Of a stretch of DNA of 64,000 bases, positions 3,668 to 63,188 are shown piece after piece. Source of the DNA: Eledone cirrhosa (taxonomy: Eukaryota); NCBI GenBank assembly GCA_964016885.1, contig OZ024741.1, positions 177,258,001 through 177,322,000 of the forward strand. The letters are read 5' to 3'. How positions within the stretch are numbered: position 1 is the stretch's first letter; every line of letters starts with the position of its first letter. The notes under the pieces are model-generated. The model was not told where the DNA came from. It saw only the letters and a list, made by a program, of their open reading frames with translations, and made no database searches. The position numbers were made by a program, and so were the translations under genes.

Positions 3668-3760
<93 letters not shown>

Positions 3761-3762
<2 letters not shown>

Positions 3763-4105
3763 GAATATATGTATAGTATATTTGGCAATATACTGTATGC
3801 TTAATTAAAAACATTTTGAAGACCACTTTCTGATTATTACTGGAATTCTATGAGAATCCTGCCTCTATAATGTTCAACAAAGGTCGGCGAGTGGTAAGCT
3901 CTGATGATCACCAACTGTGGGAAACAGATCTGTCAGCTTATCTCCCTTAGACTGTTGAAAAAAGAAGTAAGTGACATAGTCACTACTTTAAAATAATTGC
4001 GCAAGGTCTTCAAAATGTTGTTAATTAAGCATAAAGTATATTGCCAAATATACTATACCTACATTCATGTATACATCCCTCTTTCAGAGCACAAATCCTA
4101 ATTTA
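3761..4105 (+). mobile_element. Short fold-back hammerhead-bearing element related to the 310-bp satellite unit
   Basis: Inverted repeat 3761-3824 / 4005-4068; the ggtcttcaaaatgtt...tttcagagca...ctaattt segment aligns with the 310-bp unit. Confidence 0.7.
3895..3940 (+). ncRNA. Type I hammerhead ribozyme
   Basis: taagct-CTGATGA-tcac caact gtgg-GAAA-cagatctg-TC-agctta; perfect helix I, palindromic helix III, GUC site. Confidence 0.9.
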
Positions 4106-4227
4106 TATATATCCACCACTGAATATGTTGTCAACACGGTGAGGGAGATAGAGAAGAATACCTAATACAATTTCCCTGTCAAAGTTAGCACCAACGGATT
4201 TTTGCCTAACACCTGTGTCTCCTTAGA

Positions 4228-20846: not shown

Positions 20847-21300
20847 ATATATATATATATGTATGTATATATATACATATATATGTATATATATATATAG
20901 AGAGATAGATAAATATACACGGGTGTGTATGATTGTGTATAGAAGATTATATTAATAAGAGGAATTCCAACTTTGTCTGATTTACTCGTTTTAATTTACA
21001 ATCCTTTGAAATTTATAATGAAATAGTATGATAGAATATTAAATTCTAAGTGTTAATTAAACAAGTAGTTTCATGCTTTCGCAATCTTCAGGTTCATAAT
21101 ATGTAATTTCAACTGCAAACTTGACTGTCACCACATATTATGAACCCGAAGATTGCGAAAGCATGAAAGTACTTGTTTAATTAACACTTAGAATTTAATA
21201 TTCGATCATACTATTTCATTATAATACCATTATAAATGTTAAAGGATTGTAAATAAAACGAGTAAATCAGACAAAGTTGGAATTCCTCTTATTAATATGT

Positions 21301-21500
21301 NNNNNNNNNNNNNNNNNNNNNNNNNNNNNNNNNNNNNNNNNNNNNNNNNNNNNNNNNNNNNNNNNNNNNNNNNNNNNNNNNNNNNNNNNNNNNNNNNNNN
21401 NNNNNNNNNNNNNNNNNNNNNNNNNNNNNNNNNNNNNNNNNNNNNNNNNNNNNNNNNNNNNNNNNNNNNNNNNNNNNNNNNNNNNNNNNNNNNNNNNNNN
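21301..21500. other. Assembly gap (200 N)
   Basis: Run of N. Confidence 1.
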
Positions 21501-21683
21501 TTGGTTTAGGCATCAGGGTTGTTTGAGCATCTCTAACCACTTCTATTTGACCCTATCCAAAGCATCAGTTGTTTTGCTATTTTTAGAAATGATGAAATAT
21601 CTTTTTCTAGGGTTTTTATAAAAAATGTTCAGTAATCATCAACATCAACATCACTTTAATTATTATTATTGTTGTTATTCTTA

Positions 21684-21875
21684 GGCGGTGTATTGGCAGT
21701 ATCGGTAGAGGGTCGGACGCCATGCTTTCCAGCAAAGTTACGTCCTTTACGATCTGAGTTCAAATCTCGCCGAGGTTGACTTTGCCTTTCATCCTTACGG
21801 GGTCGATAAAATAAAGTACCAGTAACGCACTGGGTATTTCCTGGTCTTGTGTTTAAAGTAGAAAACAATTATTAT
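21684..21875 (+). mobile_element. tRNA-derived Deu/Nin-domain SINE nested at the PLE 3' end
   Basis: ggcggtgtattggcagtatcggtagag...gagttcaaatctcgccgaggttgactttgcctttcatccttacggggtcgataaa; (att)n tail. Confidence 0.85.
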
Positions 21876-24613
21876 TTTTAATTTTCTTTAATTTTTCTCT
21901 TGATTTCACTTGGGCTGTGTAGTTTGTAGAATGGAAATATAAATATTTTCTGACCACATGTTGCTAGATGGTTACTCGGGGGTATCTGACGGACATTTGT
22001 GTCTTTCATTTTCTGTCGATGGACCCGTGCACGTTCCAATAGTGCATTTCCAGTTTGACCGACATATAGCTCTTCAAAATTCAGGCATTTAATGCAGTAA
22101 ATTAGATTGATGCTTTTGCAGTTCATATTTGCATTTAAGAATATTTTTCCAGTTTTTGTGCTCATATATTGACCAGGTGTGTATGGATTGACATGTGCCA
22201 CATCGACTATCATTGTAATTAGATACAGTGTATGATTGATCTGTGTTGTTAAAGTGAAAATTTGCCTTTGTTAGTAATTGCTTCACATTTTTTGGCTGTC
22301 TTTTACTAAGTGTCAAAGATCGGTCTGTGATTAAACCTTTTAATTAATTACTTTGAGCAATGATCGGTAGGTTTGCTTTGGGAGTGTTAAAGATATGCCG
22401 GTGACATGGGTTGTGTATCATTATAAATGGTATGACCAGTTCTTGGTTTCTTCTTCCTTTAGTTGTCCTAAGTTGTTGTATAGGTATTATTATAGCAGGT
22501 TGTATGAAATTTTCTATAAGTAGAGATGGGTATTTTTGTTTGAGCAAAAATTATCTCAGTTCTGTTAGGCGTTTGTTGCTGGTATTTGTATCTTCTACAA
22601 TGGTACAAATTCTTCTGGCTAGGCAGTATGGGATGTTGCGTTTTGTATGAGGTGGATGGCACGACTTAAAAATCAGATATTGATGGGTGTCTGTGTGTTT
22701 ATAATATATATCCGTGTTAATGGTGGTGTCGTTTTTGATTACCATTATATCTAGGAATGGTAATTTGGTACTACTCATCTCTTTTGTAAATTGGAGAGAT
22801 TGGTGTAGGTTATTCAGGAGGATATTGAACTCACCAGAGTATCTAGAGATTCTTTCAAGATGATGAAACAGTTGTCAAGGTATTTCTTCAAGACTTTTCA
22901 ATGTACTTTCTAAATTCAGTGCTATGTTTTTCCTCTATTTCTTGTTAGAGTTGTTTGTTCTAAGTATCCCATTACAGAGTTCGCGCAAATGGGAGCAAAC
23001 TTCGTTCCCATCGCTGCTGAACCTCTAATTTGGATGTAATTCTTTCCATTGAAGAAGAATGTGTTGTTTTCCCAGAATAATTCTGACTGTGTCTAATATA
23101 AATGGCACTGTGAATCTGGTGGGAATCACTTCTCTGTGTTTTTTCCACCTAGTATTTAACCGCCTTTATTCCTAAATCATATGTAATGTTGGGTGTAAAG
23201 TCTTACCACATCAAAAAATAAGTAGAGGTGAATTCGTTTCCGTGGCTTTGGGAAGATAGGACAGGAAGTCGATATCATCCCGGATGAAACTGGGTATGTG
23301 AAGACATAGTGGTTTCAAAATAATGTCAACAAAATTGCTTAGACGGTGGGGGGGGGGGGGGATGTTGGACCAGCTATATTAGGTCTAAGTTTTAAGTCTT
23401 TTGGGTGTAGTAATTTAATGTACTCACTTTTTCGTTCTTTTACTGCCAGTTGGATTTCTTTTGACTTATGAATTTTCGGTAAGCCATAGAGGTTGCTGGG
23501 TTTTGACTGAAAATTGGTCATGTAGTCTCTTTCCTTATCAGTAGGTGAGTTGTAGTATTTGGAAGCCAGGTTGTTGATCTTCTTCATGATGTTGTGGTCT
23601 ATATTTGACGGTATTTCATGGTAGAATGTTGTGTATTTCAGTTGTTCCTCAACCAAATCTTTGTAGTATTCAGCATCCATTATAACAATTGCACCCACTT
23701 TATCAGCTTGTTTAATTAGTATTGTTTTATCATTGTGTATACGTTTACGTGCAGACATTTCCGATTTGTTAATGTTTGGCCAAACATTAGTATTACGTCT
23801 AAGAGGAAATGTATACAGGATATCAATGTATTGGTCGAGATAAATGTTTCTTCCTTTTTTGGTGGAGTGAAATTTGATTTATTCTTTACTAGTGATTCAT
23901 CATTCTCATTACTTTTATCACCGAAGAATTCTACAAGTCGTAATTTACAACAGAATTCTTGGGTATCCTCCTTTAGTCCTTGGTGGTTGACTGTTGGAGT
24001 CGGTGTGAATTTCAGTCATTTTGACAGAATTTGCATTTCGTCATTGTCAAGATCTATCTCTTTTGGTAAAATAATTATTTTTAGGATCTACGTGTTCAGT
24101 TGTTTTGGGTATGTTTCCTCCTGGGGTTTTTCGTTTTCCAGTTTTTGTTGTCCTGACATTAAAAAATGGATATTTCTCTCTTCAGGTTCATATTCAGTGG
24201 TGACAGTCAAGTTTGCAATTTTCAACTGTAATAAGATGGGTAAAATATGTGCCTAATATACAGCAACCACTAACAACAACAACAACAATAAGAAGAATAA
24301 AAGTGATGTTGATGTCACTCATTACTGAAAACTTTTTATAAAACCCTAGAAAATGCTATTTTGATCGTTTCTAAAAATAGCAAAACATTTGATGCTTTGG
24401 ATAGGGTAAAATAGAAGTCGTTAGACATGTTCAACCGACCGTGACGCTTAAACCAATCAGCTTTAGTAATCTAGTGAAGCGGCACACCGATTGGTCGAAA
24501 TACAGTTTAGAAAACTTAGCATTCTGTAGCCCCTTTTTACTGTATATAAGGCACAGATTTTACGCATCTCATTACAGTCGAAAATTACAAACTTGCCTGT
24601 CACCACTGAATAA

Positions 24614-25699: not shown

Positions 25700-26310
25700 T
25701 AATAAAGAAATGTAAGCCTGATAGTGGGGTTTAGAACCCTCAGAGAAATGGAAAAAGATGAGTATTGACGTACATGGGAGTCGAACCCACATCTTTGGTT
25801 ATCCAGACCACTGTGCTACCATTACACCAAAACATCACCCATCTGCTTCCATTCAAATTAGAAGCTACATTCTTAGCAAGTATGATGACAAGTAAGTATG
25901 TTTTGAAACAGTGAGTAAGTCTGAAATTAAAAAATAGAAGCTTTCACCGTATTTTTAGTCTAAAGAAATTTTAGCCTGATAGTGAAGTTTAGAACCCTCA
26001 GAGAAATGGAAAACGACTTGCTCACTGTTTCAAAACATACTTACTTGTCGTCATACTTGCTAATAATGTAACATCTAATTTGAATGGAAGGAGATGGGTA
26101 ATGTGTTAGTGTAATGGTAGCACAGTGGTCTGGTAAACCAAAGATGTGGGTTCGATTCCCTTGTACGTCAATACTCATCTTTTTCCATTTCTCTGAGGGT
26201 TCTAAACCACACTATCAGGCTAAAATTTCTTTAGTCAAAAAATACGGTGAAAGCATCTATTTTCTAATTTCAAACTTGCGCACTGTTTCAAAACATACTT
26301 ACTTGATATA
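25700..26310. mobile_element. Fold-back element with a tRNA-like segment in each arm
   Basis: 26100-26170: tagtgtaatggtagcac (A box), ctggtaa loop, gggttcgattccc (B box); inverted copy at about 25765-25837. Confidence 0.7.
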
Positions 26311-46890: not shown

Positions 46891-46949
<59 letters not shown>

Positions 46950-46964
46950 ATGTATGTATACATC

Positions 46965-47228
46965 CCAAAATTCAGCTCAAAAGCGACACAGAGGAGACTG
47001 AGGTTAGCTGGACATGCTCACCGACATCCAGAGTTGACATTGCACTCAGTGCTCCTTTGGGAGCCCCTACATGGACACACTAGAAGAGGAAGACCAAGGT
47101 TAACGTATGTTGATGCCCTAAGGAGAGACACTGGTCTGTTGGAGATGCAGGACATGGCTGCGATAATGAGGGACAGAGACCGCTGGAGAGAACTCGTCCA
47201 TGGATCTCGGGAATTTTACCCGCCTTAG
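46965..47228 (+). mobile_element. 3' end fragment of an RTE-like LINE within (TA)n
   Basis: [12 protein letters not shown]...[21 protein letters not shown]...RDRWR is a typical LINE ORF2 C-terminus; the stop codon abuts (AT)n. Confidence 0.8.
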
Positions 47229-47250
47229 ATATATATATATATATATATAC

Positions 47251-48210
<960 letters not shown>

Positions 48211-48880: not shown

Positions 48881-48960
<80 letters not shown>

Positions 48961-48965
<5 letters not shown>

Positions 48966-51900
48966 GAATGTAATTGTAATACGTGACGTATTCTATTCTA
49001 TAGCGATTAGGTCTTCAAAATGTTTATTATAAACATACAGAATATTTTCGAATATTCTATGTCTATCTTCACATATATATCGCTATTTCAGAGCATTTAA
49101 TCTAATTTCTAATTTCTGCCGGACCGGCAACCGCTCTTTCAAACCAGTTCCTGTACACAGCTAAGTATTCTATAAGTCTCTAGCTGTGTCATTCTCGATA
49201 AAAGCACTGGATATGTAATCCTGAAGATTTCTAATAAGAATGAAACGCGTAGGTTACTTCCCTTGCCTTTATCGAGAATCTAATTGTAATACGTGACGTA
49301 TTCTATTCTATAGCTATTAGGTCTTCAAAATGTTTATTATAAACATACAGAATATATTCGAATATTCTATGTCTATCTTCACATATATATCGCTATTTCA
49401 GAGCATTTAATCTAATTTCTAATTTCTGCCGGACCGGCAAGCGCTCTTTCAAACCAGTTCCTGTACACAGCTAAGTATTCTATAAGTCTCTAGCTGTGTC
49501 ATTCTCGATAAAAGCACTGGATATGTAATCCTGAAGATTTCTAATAAGAATGAAACGCGTAGGTTACTTCCCTTGCTTTTATCGAGAATCTAATTGTAAT
49601 ACGTGACGTATTCTATTCTATAGCGATTAGGTCTTCAAAATGTTTATTATAAACATACAGAATATTTTCGAATATTCTATGTCTATCTTCACATATATAT
49701 CGCTATTTCAGAGCATTTAATCTAATTTCTAATTTCTGCCGGACCGGCAACCGCTCTTTCAAACCAGTTCCTGTACACAGCTAAGTATTCTATAAGTCTC
49801 TAGCTGTGTCATTCTCGATAAAAGCACTGGATATGTAATCCTGAAGATTTCTAATAAGAATGAAACGCGTAGGTTACTTCCCTTGCTTTTATCGAGAATC
49901 TAATTGTAATACGTGACGTATTCTATTCTATAGCGATTAGGTCTTCAAAATGTTTATTATAAACATACAGAATATTTTCGAATATTCTATGTCTATCTTC
50001 ACATATATATCGCTATTTCAGAGCATTTAATCTAATTTCTAATTTCTGCCGGACCGGCAACCGCTCTTTCAAACCAGTTCCTGTACACAGCTAAGTCTTC
50101 TATAAGTCTCTAGCTGTGTCATTCTCGATAAAAGCACTGGATATGTAATCCTGAAGATTTCTAATAAGAATGAAACGCGTAGGTTACTTCCCTTGCTTTT
50201 ATCGAGAATCTAATTGTAATACGTGACGTATTCTATTCTATAGCGATTAGGTCTTCAAAATGTTTATTATAAACATACAGAATATTTTCGAATATTCTAT
50301 GTCTATCTTCACATATATATCGCTATTTCAGAGCATTTAATCTAATTTCTAATTTCTGCCGGACCGGCAACCGCTCTTTCAAACCAGTTCCTGTACACAG
50401 CTAAGTATTCTATAAGTCTCTAGCTGTGTCATTCTCGATAAAAGCACTGGATATGTAATCCTGAAGATTTCTAATAAGAATGAAACGCGTAGGTTACTTC
50501 CCTTGCTTTTATCGAGAATCTAATTGTAATACGTGACGTATTCTATTCTATAGCGATTAGGTCTTCAAAATGTTTATTATAAACATACAGAATATTTTCG
50601 AATATTCTATGTCTATCTTCACATATATATCGCTATTTCAGAGCATTTAATCTAATTTCTAATTTCTGCCGGACCGGCAACCGCTCTTTCAAACCAGTTC
50701 CTGTACACAGCTAAGTATTCTATAAGTCTCTAGCTGTGTCATTCTCGATAAAAGCACTGGATATGTAATCCTGAAGATTTCTAATAAGAATGAAACGCGT
50801 AGGTTACTTCCCTTGCCTTTATCGAGAATCTAATTGTAATACGTGACGTATTCTATTCTATAGCTATTAGGTCTTCAAAATGTTTATTATAAACATACAG
50901 AATATATTCGAATATTCTATGTCTATCTTCACATATATATCGCTATTTCAGAGCATTTAATCTAATTTCTAATTTCTGCCGGACCGGCAAGCGCTCTTTC
51001 AAACCAGTTCCTGTACACAGCTAAGTATTCTATAAGTCTCTAGCTGTGTCATTCTCGATAAAAGCACTGGATATGTAATCCTGAAGATTTCTAATAAGAA
51101 TGAAACGCGTAGGTTACTTCCCTTGCTTTTATCGAGAATCTAATTGTAATACGTGACGTATTCTATTCTATAGCGATTAGGTCTTCAAAATGTTTATTAT
51201 AAACATACAGAATATTTTCGAATATTCTATGTCTATCTTCACATATATATCGCTATTTCAGAGCATTTAATCTAATTTCTAATTTCTGCCGGACCGGCAA
51301 GCGCTCTTTCAAACCAGTTCCTGTACACAGCTAAGTATTCTATAAGTCTCTAGCTGTGTCATTCTCGATAAAAGCACTGGATATGTAATCCTGAAGATTT
51401 CTAATAAGAATGAAACGCGTAGGTTACTTCCCTTGCTTTTATCGAGAATCTAATTGTAATACGTGACGTATTCTATTCTATAGCGATTAGGTCTTCAAAA
51501 TGTTTATTATAAACATACAGAATATTTTCGAATATTCTATGTCTATCTTCACATATATATCGCTATTTCAGAGCATATAATCTAATTTCTAATTTCTGCC
51601 GGACCGGCAACCGCTCTTTCAAACCAGTTCCTGTACACAGCTAAGTCTTCTATAAGTCTCTAGCTGTGTCATTCTCGATAAAAGCACTGGATATGTAATC
51701 CTGAAGATTTCTAATAAGAATGAAACGCGTAGGTTACTTCCCTTGCTTTTATCGAGAATCTAATTGTAATACGTGACGTATTCTATTCTATAGCGATTAG
51801 GTCTTCAAAATGTTTATTATAAACATACAGAATATTTTCGAATATTCTATGTCTATCTTCACATATATATCGCTATTTCAGAGCATTTAATCTAATTTCT

Positions 51901-54900
51901 AATTTCTGCCGGACCGGCAACCGCTCTTTCAAACCAGTTCCTGTACACAGCTAAGTATTCTATAAGTCTCTAGCTGTGTCATTCTCGATAAAAGCACTGG
52001 ATATGTAATCCTGAAGATTTCTAATAAGAATGAAACGCGTAGGTTACTTCCCTTGCTTTTATCGAGAATCTAATTGTAATACGTGACGTATTCTATTCTA
52101 TAGCGATTAGGTCTTCAAAATGTTTATTATAAACATACAGAATATTTTCGAATATTCTATGTCTATCTTCACATATATATCGCTATTTCAGAGCATTTAA
52201 TCTAATTTCTAATTTCTGCCGGACCGGCAACCGCTCTTTCAAACCAGTTCCTGTACACAGCTAAGTATTCTATAAGTCTCTAGCTGTGTCATTCTCGATA
52301 AAAGCACTGGATATGTAATCCTGAAGATTTCTAATAAGAATGAAACGCGTAGGTTACTTCCCTTGCCTTTATCGAGAATCTAATTGTAATACGTGACGTA
52401 TTCTATTCTATAGCTATTAGGTCTTCAAAATGTTTATTATAAACATACAGAATATATTCGAATATTCTATGTCTATCTTCACATATATATCGCTATTTCA
52501 GAGCATTTAATCTAATTTCTAATTTCTGCCGGACTGGCAAGCGCTCTTTCAAACCAGTTCCTGTACACAGCTAAGTATTCTATAAGTCTCTAGCTGTGTC
52601 ATTATCGATAAAAGCACTGGATATGTAATCCTGAAGATTTCTAATAAGAATGAAACGCGTAGGTTACTTGCCTTGCTTTTATCGAGAATCTAATTGTAAT
52701 ACGTGACGTATTCTATTCTATAGCGATTAGGTCTTCAAAATGTTTATTATAAACATACAGAATATTTTCGAATATTCTATGTCTATCTTCACATATATAT
52801 CGCTATTTCAGAGCATTTAATCTAATTTCTAATTTCTGCCGGACCGGCAACCGCTCTTTCAAACCAGTTCCTGTACACAGCTAAGTATTCTATAAGTCTC
52901 TAGCTGTGTCATTCTCGATAAAAGCACTGGATATGTAATCCTGAAGATTTCTAATAAGAATGAAACGCGTAGGTTACTTCCCTTGCTTTTATCGAGAATC
53001 TAATTGTAATACGTGACGTATTCTATTCTATAGCGATTAGGTCTTCAAAATGTTTATTATAAACATACAGAATATTTTCGAATATTCTATGTCTATCTTC
53101 ACATATATATCGCTATTTCAGAGCATTTAATCTAATTTCTAATTTCTGCCGGACCGGCAACCGCTCTTTCAAACCAGTTCCTGTACACAGCTAAGTATTC
53201 TATAAGTCTCTAGCTGTGTCATTCTCGATAAAAGCACTGGATATGTAATCCTGAAGATTTCTAATAAGAATGAAACGCGTAGGTTACTTCCCTTGCCTTT
53301 ATCGAGAATCTAATTGTAATACGTGACGTATTCTATTCTATAGCTATTAGGTCTTCAAAATGTTTATTATAAACATACAGAATATATTCGAATATTCTAT
53401 GTCTATCTTCACATATATATCGCTATTTCAGAGCATTTAATCTAATTTCTAATTTCTGCCGGACCGGCAAGCGCTCTTTCAAACCAGTTCCTGTACACAG
53501 CTAAGTATTCTATAAGTCTCTAGCTGTGTCATTCTCGATAAAAGCACTGGATATGTAATCCTGAAGATTTCTAATAAGAATGAAACGCGTAGGTTACTTC
53601 CCTTGCTTTTATCGAGAATCTAATTGTAATACGTGACGTATTCTATTCTATAGCGATTAGGTCTTCAAAATGTTTATTATAAACATACAGAATATTTTCG
53701 AATATTCTATGTCTATCTTCACATATATATCGCTATTTCAGAGCATTTAATCTAATTTCTAATTTCTGCCGGACCGGCAACCGCTCTTTCAAACCAGTTC
53801 CTGTACACAGCTAAGTATTCTATAAGTCTCTAGCTGTGTCATTCTCGATAAAAGCACTGGATATGTAATCCTGAAGATTTCTAATAAGAATGAAACGCGT
53901 AGGTTACTTCCCTTGCTTTTATCGAGAATCTAATTGTAATACGTGACGTATTCTATTCTATAGCGATTAGGTCTTCAAAATGTTTATTATAAACATACAG
54001 AATATTTTCGAATATTCTATGTCTATCTTCACATATATATCGCTATTTCAGAGCATTTAATCTAATTTCTAATTTCTGCCGGACCGGCAACCGCTCTTTC
54101 AAACCAGTTCCTGTACACAGCTAAGTCTTCTATAAGTCTCTAGCTGTGTCATTCTCGATAAAAGCACTGGATATGTAATCCTGAAGATTTCTAATAAGAA
54201 TGAAACGCGTAGGTTACTTCCCTTGCTTTTATCGAGAATCTAATTGTAATACGTGACGTATTCTATTCTATAGCGATTAGGTCTTCAAAATGTTTATTAT
54301 AAACATACAGAATATTTTCGAATATTCTATGTCTATCTTCACATATATATCGCTATTTCAGAGCATTTAATCTAATTTCTAATTTCTGCCGGACCGGCAA
54401 GCGCTCTTTCAAACCAGTTCCTGTACACAGCTAAGTATTCTATAAGTCTCTAGCTGTGTCATTCTCGATAAAAGCACTGGATATGTAATCCTGAAGATTT
54501 CTAATAAGAATGAAACGCGTAGGTTACTTCCCTTGCTTTTATCGAGAATCTAATTGTAATACGTGACGTATTCTATTCTATAGCGATTAGGTCTTCAAAA
54601 TGTTTATTATAAACATACAGAATATTTTCGAATATTCTATGTCTATCTTCACATATATATCGCTATTTCAGAGCATTTAATCTAATTTCTAATTTCTGCC
54701 GGACCGGCAACCGCTCTTTCAAACCAGTTCCTGTACACAGCTAAGTCTTCTATAAGTCTCTAGCTGTGTCATTCTCGATAAAAGCACTGGATATGTAATC
54801 CTGAAGATTTCTAATAAGAATGAAACGCGTAGGTTACTTCCCTTGCTTTTATCGAGAATCTAATTGTAATACGTGACGTATTCTATTCTATAGCGATTAG

Positions 54901-57760
54901 GTCTTCAAAATGTTTATTATAAACATACAGAATATTTTCGAATATTCTATGTCTATCTTCACATAGATATCGCTATTTCAGAGCATTTAATCTAATTTCT
55001 AATTTCTGCCGGACCGGCAACCGCTCTTTCAAACCAGTTCCTGTACACAGCTAAGTATTCTATAAGTCTCTAGCTGTGTCATTCTCGATAAAAGCACTGG
55101 ATATGTAATCCTGAAGATTTCTAATAAGAATGAAACGCGTAGGTTACTTCCCTTGCTTTTATCGAGAATCTAATTGTAATACGTGACGTATTCTATTCTA
55201 TAGCGATTAGGTCTTCAAAATGTTTATTATAAACATACAGAATATTTTCGAATATTCTATGTCTATCTTCAAATATATATCGCTATTTCAGAGCATTTAA
55301 TCTAATTTCTAATTTCTGCCGGACCGGCAACCGCTCTTTCAAACCAGTTCCTGTACACAGCTAAGTATTCTATAAGTCTCTAGCTGTGTCATTCTCGATA
55401 AAAGCACTGGATATGTAATCCTGAAGATTTCTAATAAGAATGAAACGCGTAGGTTACTTCCCTTGCCTTTATCGAGAATCTAATTGTAATACGTGACGTA
55501 TTCTATTCTATAGCTATTAGGTCTTCAAAATGTTTATTATAAACATACAGAATATATTCGAATATTCTATGTCTATCTTCACATATATATCGCTATTTCA
55601 GAGCATTTAATCTAATTTCTAATTTCTGCCGGACCGGCAAGCGCTCTTTCAAACCAGTTCCTGTACACAGCTAAGTATTCTATAAGTCTCTAGCTGTGTC
55701 ATTCTCGATAAAAGCACTGGATATGTAATCCTGAAGATTTCTAATAAGAATGAAACGCGTAGGTTACTTCCCTTGCTTTTATCGAGAATCTAATTGTAAT
55801 ACGTGACGTATTCTATTCTATAGCGATTAGGTCTTCAAAATGTTTATTATAAACATACAGAATATTTTCGAATATTCTATGTCTATCTTCACATATATAT
55901 CGCTATTTCAGAGCATTTAATCTAATTTCTAATTTCTGCCGGACCGGCAACCGCTCTTTCAAACCAGTTCCTGTACACAGCTAAGTCTTCTATAAGTCTC
56001 TAGCTGTGTCATTCTCGATAAAAGCACTGGATATGTAATCCTGAAGATTTCTAATAAGAATGAAACGCGTAGGTTACTTCCCTTGCTTTTATCGAGAATC
56101 TAATTGTAATACGTGACGTATTCTATTCTATAGCGATTAGGTCTTCAAAATGTTTATTATAAACATACAGAATATTTTCGAATATTCTATGTCTATCTTC
56201 ACATATATATCGCTATTTCAGAGCATTTAATCTAATTTCTAATTTCTGCCGGACCGGCAACCGCTCTTTCAAACCAGTTCCTGTACACAGCTAAGTATTC
56301 TATAAGTCTCTAGCTGTGTTATTCTCGATAAAAGCACTGGATATGTAATCCTGAAGATTTCTAATAAGAATGAAACGCGTAGGTTACTTCCCTTGCTTTT
56401 ATCGAGAATCTAATTGTAATACGTGACGTATTCTATTCTATAGCGATTAGGTCTTCAAAATGTTTATTATAAACATACAGAATATTTTCGAATATTCTAT
56501 GTCTATCTTCACATATATATCGCTATTTCAGATCATTTAATCTAATTTCTAATTTCTGCCGGACCGGCAACCACTCTTTCAAACCAGTTCCTGTACACAG
56601 CTAAGTATTCTATAAGTCTCTAGCTGTGTCATTCTCGATAAAAGCACTGGATATGTAATCCTGAAGATTTCTAATAAGAATGAAACGCGTAGGTTACTTC
56701 CCTTGCTTTTATCGAGAATCTAATTGTAATACGTGACGTATTCTATTCTATAGCGATTAGGTCTTCAAAATGTTTATTATAAACATACAGAATATTTTCG
56801 AATATTCTATGTCTATCTTCACATATATATCGCTATTTCAGAGCGTTTAATCTAATTTCTAATTGCTGCCGGACCGGCAACCGCTCTTTCAAACCAGTTC
56901 CTGTACACAGCTAAGTATTCTATAAGTCTCTAGCTGTGTCATTCTCGATAAAAGCACTGGATATGTAATCCTGAAGATTTCTAATAAGAATGAAACGCGT
57001 AGGTTACTTCCCTTGCTTTTATCGAGAATCTAATTGTAATACGTGACGTATTCTATTCTATAGCGATTAGGTCTTCAAAATGTTTATTATAAACATACAG
57101 AATATTTTCGAATATTCTATGTCTATCTTCACATATATATCGCTATTTCAGAGCATTTAATCTAATTTCTAATTTCTGCCGGACCGGCAACCGCTCTTTC
57201 AAACCAGTTCCTGTACACAGCTAAGTATTCTATAAGTCTCTAGCTGTGTCATTCTCGATAAAAGCACTGGATATGTAATCCTGAAGATTTCTAATAAGAA
57301 TGAAACGCGTAGGTTACTTCCCTTGCTTTTATCGAGAATCTAATTGTAATACGTGACGTATTCTATTCTATAGCGATTAGGTCTTCAAAATGTTTATTAT
57401 AAACATACAGAATATTTTCGAATATTCTATGTCTATCTTCACATATATATCGCTATTTCAGAGCATTTAATCTAATTTCTAATTTCTGCCGGACCGGCAA
57501 CCGCTCTTTCAAACCAGTTCCTGTACACAGCTAAGTATTCTATAAGTCTCTAGCTGTGTCATTCTCGATAAAAGCACTGGATATGTAATCCTGAAGATTT
57601 CTAATAAGAATGAAACGCGTAGGTTACTTCCCTTGCTTTTATCGAGAATCTAATTGTAATACGTGACGTATTCTATTCTATAGCGATTAGGTCTTCAAAA
57701 TGTTTATTATAAACATACAGCATATTTTCGAATATTCTATGTCTATCTTCACATATATAT
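48961..57760 (+). repeat. Tandem array of 28 full plus one partial 310-bp units, each carrying a hammerhead ribozyme (non-LTR retrozyme-like satellite)
   Basis: Exact 310-bp period (unit starts 48961 ... 57641); few substitutions; (TA)n on both sides. Confidence 0.97.
49215..49257 (+). ncRNA. Minimal type I hammerhead ribozyme (first of 28 copies, repeated every 310 bp)
   Basis: gtaatc-CTGAAGA-t ttct aata agaa t-GAAA-cgcg-TA-ggttac; helix I gtaatc/ggttac; palindromic acgcgt; predicted cleavage after 49251. Confidence 0.9.
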
Positions 57761-57800
57761 ATATATATATTTATATATGTATATATATATATATATATAT

Positions 57801-62460
<4,660 letters not shown>

Positions 62461-63188
62461 TATATATATATATATATATAAAGATTTGAATGGATACAGT
62501 TTAGTTGAAAGGAATTCATTGACACGTGTTTCTATAACAGTTACATAACCTGAAAACAGCTGCGATCTACAAAGTTTTAGTTATGCAGACATTCAATATT
62601 TCAATGTTATTATTTACTGTCATTTCATCAGAATAATATTACTGAGGACCTATTTAGTTTTTATAGAGAATATTAGGAGGGAGGGGTGAAGTTGTTAGAA
62701 GAATAGTTGAAGGAGTAGTTTTTCGATAGCAGTGAGAATTCTTGGTGGCAGTGAGTAATTAGATTCCCATCTGTTGTTTTGACATTTTTTATAGAATATA
62801 TTATTGGTTATTTTTCTAAATCTATAGAAGGATTAGAGATAGTAAAGATATGCGTGGTTGGTTTTGTGTTTGCACTTAATTAACATTCAGACTTAAATTT
62901 TTCTTTCAAGTGTACGTATCCTTTCACCCACTCATTCACACACAAATATATTTGCACACCTCTACAAAATACATATACTCACAATTCACATATTCATACT
63001 TACATACATATACACATGCATACACATATATATACACACATGTATTCATGTACATACATACGCGCTCATGTGTATACATTTTCATACTCAACTTATCTTT
63101 ATATACACACGTATAGACACACACATATATACATACATACTCTAGTCCATGTGTACACACATACACATACATACACATCTATATACAC

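What the first reader, a model, noticed from the sequence alone, without database searches (positions are those of the whole stretch)
48961..57760. 8.8-kb satellite made of 28 hammerhead-ribozyme units: candidate retrozyme/circular RNA locus
Seen: an exact 310-bp period, and every unit has an apparently invariant type I hammerhead (gtaatc CUGAAGA [U-UUCU-AAUA-AGAA-U] GAAA CGCG UA^ ggttac). No ORF is present and (TA)n lies on both sides. Established: metazoan non-LTR retrozymes are tandem repeats of a few hundred bp with type I HHRs that self-process into monomeric linear and circular RNAs, and they are proposed to be mobilised by Penelope-like RTs. Inference: a transcript of this array would self-cleave into 310-nt monomers (5'-GGUUAC...ACGCGUA-3') that can circularise. 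The array would derive from rolling-circle reverse transcription and/or later tandem amplification. The copy number, the homogeneity and the near-intact PLE about 400 bp away make it a strong candidate. Whether this family is already described cannot be determined here.
Basis: partly seen in the sequence, partly recalled or inferred. Interest (0 to 1): 0.93.

Follow-up and report, generated by a model that had tools for sequence, protein, structure and literature searches.

The report
Ribozyme repeat spread by Penelope retrotransposons
This repeat is one copy of a large family of short, non-coding mobile elements that carry a self-cutting RNA motif, and the shape of its insertions across the genome points to a Penelope-type enzyme copying a small RNA circle round and round into (TA)n stretches.

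Summary
Confirmed: 28 units of 310 bp plus 120 bp, an invariant type I hammerhead motif in each, no ORF, (TA)n on both sides. It is not a lone satellite. It is one insertion of a dispersed family with at least 17,291 hammerhead-motif copies in this 3.0-Gb genome.

Of 80 other loci, 61 are head-to-head inverted arm pairs. Their 3' ends sit at two fixed sites 26-35 nt apart, mostly joined to (TA)n. In 58 of 60 complete pairs one arm ends at each site; none uses the same site twice. This is the Penelope-like element (PLE) 'tail' signature.

The 5' ends are random and not enriched at the cleavage site. Young loci carry one haplotype in all units of both arms, and fixed variants spare the ribozyme. 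The best reading is rolling-circle reverse transcription of a circular monomer by a PLE enzyme; uncleaved linear transcripts remain a real rival.

The neighbouring PLE shares no sequence with the unit and is probably not the partner; no partner was found. Cleavage, expression and circles are untested. Retrozymes are known; this insertion anatomy was not found in the papers searched.

The parts
48961..57760 (+). Single-arm retrozyme insertion: 28 units of 310 bp plus a 120-bp terminal part; the + strand is the ribozyme strand
49215..49257 (+). Type I hammerhead motif, first of 28 (+310n): helix I 6 bp, helix II 4 bp over a U.U mismatch, helix III 1 bp with palindromic tetraloop; predicted cut after 49251
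   Evidence: cleavage itself not tested
49191..49279 (+). Extended helix I (16 bp, 49191-49206 with 49264-49279; +310n) that would hold the cut ends of a monomer together
   Evidence: 11 of 18 pairs with two-sided change across 21 family and sister units
49020..49058 (+). Two hairpins just upstream of end site 1 (+310n), conserved with compensatory changes in sister families; candidate RT recognition element (inference)
49071..49106 (+). End site 1 (unit positions 111-120, an internal AT run) and end site 2 (position 146, variants to 153); the stretch between is the 26-35 nt tail (+310n)
   Evidence: 126 of 128 outer 3' ends at other loci fall in these two classes; 12 of 12 more
57751..57760 (+). 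3' junction of this insertion at end site 1, running into (TA)n
48881..48962 (.). Left (TA)n target tract; 5' junction at unit position 1
57753..57800 (.). Right (TA)n target tract
3744..4127 (.). Separate inverted insertion of a homologous sister retrozyme family (75-80% identity over unit positions 49-151, own hammerhead at 3901)

Best explanation
The array is one insertion of a non-autonomous, non-LTR retrozyme family that uses Penelope-like (PLE) machinery. Step 1 (inferred): an array is transcribed on the + strand and neighbouring hammerheads pair through their palindromes and cut out 310-nt monomers. Step 2 (inferred from known retrozymes): a host ligase closes the monomer. Step 3 (shown as a genomic footprint; enzyme inferred): a PLE RT/GIY-YIG protein cuts a (TA)n tract and primes cDNA from both DNA ends at two internal RNA sites, one end at site 1 and the other at site 2. 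Step 4 (inferred): each cDNA runs round the circle and stops at a random point, and the two are joined head to head. The window's copy has only the site-1 arm, and its recurring 5-unit pattern suggests it was lengthened afterwards by local duplication. Odds: retrozyme family 0.95, PLE-type insertion 0.9, circular monomer as usual template 0.65, later local expansion here 0.6.
For: Dispersed family: 14,709 copies of a degenerate motif that excludes the window's form plus 2,582 of the window's core form; controls 0. Inverted arm pairs at 61 of 80 loci; 58 of 60 complete pairs have one end at each site, 2 have site 1 plus another position, 0 use one site twice. 111 of 128 outer ends pass a strict (TA)n test. 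PLEs show inverted 5'-truncated copies, a 30-40 bp tail at one end and (TA)n targets (PMC8557442 passages); a purified PLE protein cuts AT-rich DNA, extends both strands and starts at two internal sites that bound the tail (PMC11167929). An ORF-bearing PLE in this genome shows the same unequal inverted ends, 127 nt past its hammerhead cut (L130), against 130-139 nt here. 5' ends are uniform round the unit (n=127, KS p=0.55), 4 within 5 nt of the cut against 4.5 expected; 88 of 128 arms cross two or more cleavage sites. Both arms share a haplotype in 24 of 25 loci against 109 of 600 cross-locus pairs; nine young loci differ internally at 5 of 27,153 bases; private variants are fixed through both arms (L179, L183, L188, L189, L191, L195). 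Locus-fixed substitutions: 0 of 27 in the core, 8 of 9 at paired sites keep the pair; single-unit variants: 12 keep, 29 break, 4 hit the core (Fisher p=0.0008).
Against: No autonomous partner found in 50 GIY-YIG loci or the window. In vitro, hammerhead cleavage was not needed for PLE insertion and uncleaved RNA was the main template. Only 1 of 9 Xenopus retrozyme dimers cleaved in vitro (bioRxiv 2026.07.22.740005). Six older loci carry a non-fixed variant in both arms (L016, L021, L023, L032, L039, L047), which a single monomer circle does not explain; L023 has the same deletion at the same rank in both arms and L032 has a core mutation in 4 of 8 units. Both end sites match the (TA)n target by 2-9 nt, unlike the non-homologous start seen in vitro. 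The monomer hammerhead fold is unfavourable (+2.7 kcal/mol).
Confidence: 0.68

Rival explanations
1. Same PLE machinery, but the template is a long uncleaved or partly cleaved linear transcript of a homogeneous source array; the hammerhead is incidental to copying.
For: Uncleaved RNA was the dominant substrate for a purified PLE protein. Helix III is weak. Variants shared between arms without being fixed occur at six loci. Young source arrays are homogeneous enough to give uniform progeny.
Against: 27 distinct locus-fixed substitutions imply repeated one-unit bottlenecks. None of 22 multi-unit polymorphisms outside the window recurs as such at a second locus (low power, 74 loci of perhaps 1,400). 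Fixed variants preserve the ribozyme. No excess of 5' ends at the cut site.
Confidence: 0.22
2. A DNA satellite spread by DNA-level routes (extrachromosomal circles, unequal exchange), with the hammerhead a relic of a PLE terminal repeat.
For: The window's array has a recurring 5-unit pattern. Strand excess in motif counts (319 vs 624; 1,039 vs 1,543) hints at large one-direction arrays. A birth-then-expansion model is discussed in the 2026 preprint.
Against: Strand-specific fixed 3' ends, the one-of-each rule (58 of 60), random 5' ends and G.U-tolerant conservation on the + strand are not expected from DNA recombination. It may still explain extra length at this locus.
Confidence: 0.05
3. The neighbouring PLE (58148-62580) is the parent or driver of this array.
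For: 388 bp apart; it encodes RT motifs and a GIY-YIG-like domain.
Against: No shared sequence or structure with the unit; in-frame stop between RT and endonuclease frames; no hammerhead found in it; PLE relics are everywhere. An intact relative of it acting in trans is not excluded.
Confidence: 0.05
4. The 28-copy array is an assembly artefact.
For: No read or contig spanning it was seen.
Against: Units carry 13 private and 5 patterned variants; both junctions follow the family's rules; a 27.3-unit arm exists on another chromosome.
Confidence: 0.02

Closest known systems
Metazoan non-LTR retrozymes (coral, mussel, axolotl; PMC7229834, parts 2-4 of 6 read)
   Same: Tandem non-coding repeat of 150-450 bp, GC under 50%, one type I hammerhead per unit, self-paired predicted RNA. 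Helix III like axolotl HHR_Amex1 (1 bp, palindromic tetraloop) and U.U at the base of helix II like HHR_Amex2; both cleave better as dimers.
   Different: Here the insertions are inverted arm pairs with two fixed ends in (TA)n; the words inverted, tail, microsatellite and rolling do not occur in that main text (its supplement could not be read). Circular RNA was shown there and is untested here.
Penelope-like elements, especially Poseidon of Anolis (PMC11167929, parts 1-2 of 4 read) and the Neptune/Naiad/Hydra clades (PMC8557442, passages)
   Same: Inverted 5'-truncated copy, tail at one end only, AT-rich targets, internal start sites downstream of a hammerhead.
   Different: No ORF; the whole element is the repeat; arms hold up to 28 units. 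In vitro the two strands showed no difference in start site, whereas here every complete pair uses the two sites asymmetrically or (2 of 60) ends elsewhere.
Vertebrate retrozymes related to PLE pseudo-LTRs (bioRxiv 10.64898/2026.07.22.740005, parts 1-3 of 5 read; supplements closed)
   Same: Proposed non-autonomous PLE derivatives; similar unit length; arrays of up to 300 units reported.
   Different: That link rests on co-occurrence and sequence homology; here homology to a PLE was not found and the link rests on insertion anatomy.
Non-autonomous Chlamys PLEs such as MRC1 (PMC8557442, passage)
   Same: Non-autonomous, multicopy head-to-tail insertions driven by PLEs.
   Different: They resemble their partners at the 3' end, and that clade lacks canonical hammerheads.

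Membership tests
Non-LTR retrozyme | Tandem repeat of about 150-450 bp, GC under 50%, non-coding | tested here: met
   310 bp, 34% GC, longest stop-free frame 46 codons
Non-LTR retrozyme | Type I hammerhead in each unit | tested here: met
   Core and helices in 28 of 28; covariation with sister families; below Rfam gathering score
Non-LTR retrozyme | Dispersed copies, i.e. mobile | tested here: met
   80 loci examined
Non-LTR retrozyme | No LTR, PBS or PPT | tested here: inconclusive
   No terminal repeat distinct from the unit; PBS and PPT not searched specifically
Non-LTR retrozyme | Self-cleavage of transcripts | not testable with these tools
   Folding only: monomer +2.7, dimer model -14.1 kcal/mol against cofold minimum -14.8
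Non-LTR retrozyme | Accumulates as linear and circular RNA | not testable with these tools
   No run on record as RNA was listed; only contigs could be laid
PLE-mobilised element | Inverted 5'-truncated copy joined head to head | tested here: met
   61 of 80 other loci; not at the window's own locus, which has one arm
PLE-mobilised element | 30-40 bp tail at one end only | tested here: met
   26-35 nt, the range set by the AT run at site 1; 58 of 60 complete pairs
PLE-mobilised element | AT-rich or (TA)n target | tested here: met
   111 of 128 ends by a strict test; most of the rest AT-rich
PLE-mobilised element | Sequence shared with the pseudo-LTR of an autonomous PLE | tested here: inconclusive
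   None in 50 loci out of 10,597 GIY-YIG candidates
Autonomous PLE | ORF with RT and GIY-YIG | tested here: not met
   No ORF in the unit
Plant LTR retrozyme | Type III hammerhead in LTRs | tested here: not met
   Helix I is the open helix; no LTR

The most novel reading that the evidence does not exclude
A currently active PLE enzyme performs rolling-circle reverse transcription on one 310-nt ribozyme-made RNA circle, priming the two ends of a cut (TA)n tract at two different fixed sites in an obligatory one-of-each way and making up to 8.5 kb of cDNA per arm. The family would then be a natural record of both retrozyme mobilisation and the origin of the PLE tail and inversion.
Probability: 0.5. 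Interest if true: 0.8.

Novelty: new member of a known kind. Interest (0 to 1): 0.6.

Why it matters
Which enzyme moves animal retrozymes is open: a 2020 review says their repeats show no motif that identifies the partner (PMC7761336, passage), and the 2026 preprint reports limited evidence on the life cycle. This family leaves the PLE footprint at almost every insertion, names two exact start sites and a conserved upstream structure, and includes very young copies. That makes circle versus linear template, and the asymmetric two-site priming behind the PLE tail, directly testable with a purified enzyme.

Tried and rejected
Rfam: no hammerhead at gathering score; weak HH9 only.

Partner search: BLASTN, shuffled local alignments of 17 PLE 3' regions and a covariance model of the end region over the window and 50 GIY-YIG loci found only family or sister copies. 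Shuffle z-scores up to 6.8 for the sister unit against L127 and L133 were not followed up; those 3' regions are AT/CA-rich and BLASTN and the model gave no significant match there.

Expression: no RNA holder listed; this is no evidence either way. Runs X4, X5 and X6 each hold one 340-nt contig (310 + 30, a closed graph cycle) matching three different young subfamilies of this genome. Their kind is not on record, and tandem DNA gives the same cycle, so this was not used as evidence.

My first mapping script fragmented on palindromes and was replaced by BLAST. The first pairing test used a circular minimum-energy fold that mis-registers the hammerhead (p=0.03 and 0.07); it was redone with catalytic pairing chosen after seeing the data.

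The idea that dead hammerheads explain multi-unit patterns: 5 of 22 such variants fall in the motif against about 3 expected; rejected as unsupported.

Arm junctions overlap by 1-6 nt in 33 of 54 simple pairs; no chance control was run.

Earlier scan findings: none returned. The large one-direction arrays implied by strand excess were not located.
Full report
Observation. The array is as described: 28 units of exactly 310 bp from 48961, a 120-bp remainder to 57760, 39 differences in 8,680 bases, and a 43-nt type I hammerhead motif unchanged in 28 of 28 units with predicted cleavage after 49251 + 310n. There is no ORF and (TA)n lies on both sides. Rfam does not call it at gathering score (weak HH9). 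Helix III is a single pair around a palindromic tetraloop and helix II stands on a U.U mismatch. The monomer fold costs +2.7 kcal/mol, while a two-copy model reaches -14.1, close to the cofold minimum of -14.8, so it probably works as a dimer, as reported for two axolotl hammerheads with these features (PMC7229834). The linear monomer folds better than 100 of 100 shuffles (z=-3.8) and its ends pair through helix I.

Family. The window is G000:C2:177258001-177322000 in an unnamed 3.0-Gb genome; the organism was not identified. A degenerate motif that excludes the window's form occurs 14,709 times and the window's core form 2,582 times, at least 17,291 units or about 0.18% of the assembly; reversed controls gave 0. 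Two young subfamilies account for 4,250 and 3,958. The window's exact 43-mer has 943 copies, and a 26-mer marking its own sub-lineage only 34, of which 25 are in the window. The first 35.9 Mb of C1 hold 17 loci, which extrapolates to roughly 1,400. Homologous sister families of 317-322 bp with stronger hammerheads share a 17-mer found 5,263 times. Across 21 family and sister units, 25 of 55 pairs show two-sided changes (0 of 500 shuffles; 3-5 pairs when slid). The rows fall in two clades and the structure came from the same alignment, so this counts fewer independent events than it seems.

Insertion anatomy. I examined 80 other loci: 39 from the 150 of 277 matches listed (ranked by similarity), 20 further C1 places from the first 100 listed, all 15 places in the first 100, and 6 hand-picked, mostly for long arms. 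Of the first 74, 55 are head-to-head inverted pairs and 19 single arms (two of these cut by a contig end or gap, one with an inverted stub under my 45-bp cut). One pair was cut by my fetch. Of 54 complete pairs, 52 have one arm ending at site 1 (unit positions 111-120) and the other at site 2 (146, variants 139-155), 2 have site 1 and another position, and none repeats a site. All 6 extra loci follow the rule: 58 of 60 in total, or 2 to the power -58 for the 58 if sites were chosen independently. Of 128 outer ends, 111 pass a strict (TA)n test. Neither arm class is longer (site 1 longer in 27 of 52). The 5' ends are uniform (n=127, p=0.55) with no excess at the cut, and 117 of 128 arms cross at least one cleavage site, 88 at least two. 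Inverted truncated copies, a 30-40 bp tail at one end and (TA)n targets are PLE hallmarks (PMC8557442, passages; PMC3846280, passages). A purified PLE protein cuts AT-rich DNA, extends both strands and starts at two internal sites bounding the tail (PMC11167929). An ORF-bearing PLE here, L130, has the same unequal inverted ends.

Template. A linear cleaved monomer primed at these sites could give at most about 170 nt, so the template is a circle or a long multimer (inference). Both arms carry the same haplotype at 24 of 25 loci, against 109 of 600 cross-locus pairs; nine young loci differ internally at 5 of 27,153 bases. Private variants run through every unit of both arms, for example 18 units at L191 and 17 at L195. 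Leaving out L048 (indel-rich) and one entry that is really an insertion, 27 locus-fixed substitutions include none in the core and keep the pair at 8 of 9 paired sites, while 143 single-unit variants include 4 in the core, 29 that break and 12 that keep a pair (p=0.0008; p=0.018 for damaging versus the rest). Single-unit variants may include sequencing errors, and the pairing was fixed after seeing the data. This pattern means repeated one-unit bottlenecks with selection on RNA structure, which a ribozyme-made circle provides. Against it: six older loci share a non-fixed variant between arms, pointing to oligomeric templates or conversion between arms, and uncleaved RNA was the preferred template in vitro.

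This locus. It is a single arm ending at site 1, with a random 5' end in (TA)n. Internal divergence is 0.45%, against 0.27% for the other older-type loci. A four-variant monomer recurs at ranks 1, 6, 11, 14 and 21, which suggests a block of about five units duplicated after insertion; an oligomeric template is the alternative. L190, by contrast, has a 27.3-unit arm without such a pattern, so a single long run is possible. The adjacent PLE is not supported as partner, and no partner was found in 50 of 10,597 GIY-YIG candidates.

Comparison and novelty. It works like, and by every testable feature is, a non-LTR retrozyme; cleavage and circular RNA could not be tested. Retrozymes and their proposed link to PLEs are in print. 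Seven searches of the held library returned no paper whose listing, or whose text where I read it, describes inverted arms with a tail or a one-of-each end rule in retrozymes. Most listed papers were seen as listings and abstract starts only, subscription journals and repeat databases were not searched, and the supplements of PMC7229834 and of the preprint could not be seen and may bear on this.

Verdict. A real, ordinary-looking member of a known class, whose family gives unusually clear genomic evidence on an open mechanism. Interest 0.6.

Noticed in passing
window 3744-4127: Inverted insertion of a sister retrozyme family with its own hammerhead at 3901, ending at the equivalents of sites 1 and 2.
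   Followed up: partly
window 19925, 21091, 38820, 39924, 40242, 40631, 44073, 44593, 44831, 44880, 48111: Eleven more type I hammerhead-like motifs of at least seven other families, several as inverted pairs (40242/40631, 44831/44880) or a 520-bp tandem (44073/44593); the same motifs recur in other loci.
   Followed up: no
window 58148-62580 (- strand): PLE with an asparagine-rich insert before the RT, an in-frame stop between RT and endonuclease frames, a roughly 280-bp direct terminal repeat and a short inverted terminal copy; asparagine-rich inserts are described in rotifer Penelope elements.
   Followed up: partly
window 46912-47276 and 57752-58100: Two copies (93% identical) of a LINE-like 3' fragment face each other across the array, each running into (TA)n; the LINE label is recalled, from no call. 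Probably independent insertions.
   Followed up: no
window 25766-25836 (-) and 26100-26170 (+): Two similar tRNA-like sequences in inverted orientation, possibly a tRNA-derived repeat.
   Followed up: no
G000 motif counts: An excess of 305 and 504 minus-strand matches suggests one or more very long one-direction arrays somewhere in the assembly.
   Followed up: no
L130 2915-6100; also L118, L119, L121, L128: ORF-bearing PLE family with a minimal hammerhead in its 3' repeat and unequal inverted ends in (TA)n; a relic lies at window 21091-24000. No homology to the unit, but similar spacing from cut to end.
   Followed up: partly
runs X4, X5, X6 on window 49564-49973: Each run holds one closed 340-nt contig of a different young subfamily; X4 and X5 lack the neighbouring high-copy repeat that X1 and X6 hold. 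Run kind not on record.
   Followed up: partly
L032, L018, L025: Hammerhead-damaging variants present in several units of one locus (4 of 8, 2 of 10, 3 of 16).
   Followed up: partly
window about 21300-21500: Run of N (assembly gap), seen in the ORF listing.
   Followed up: no
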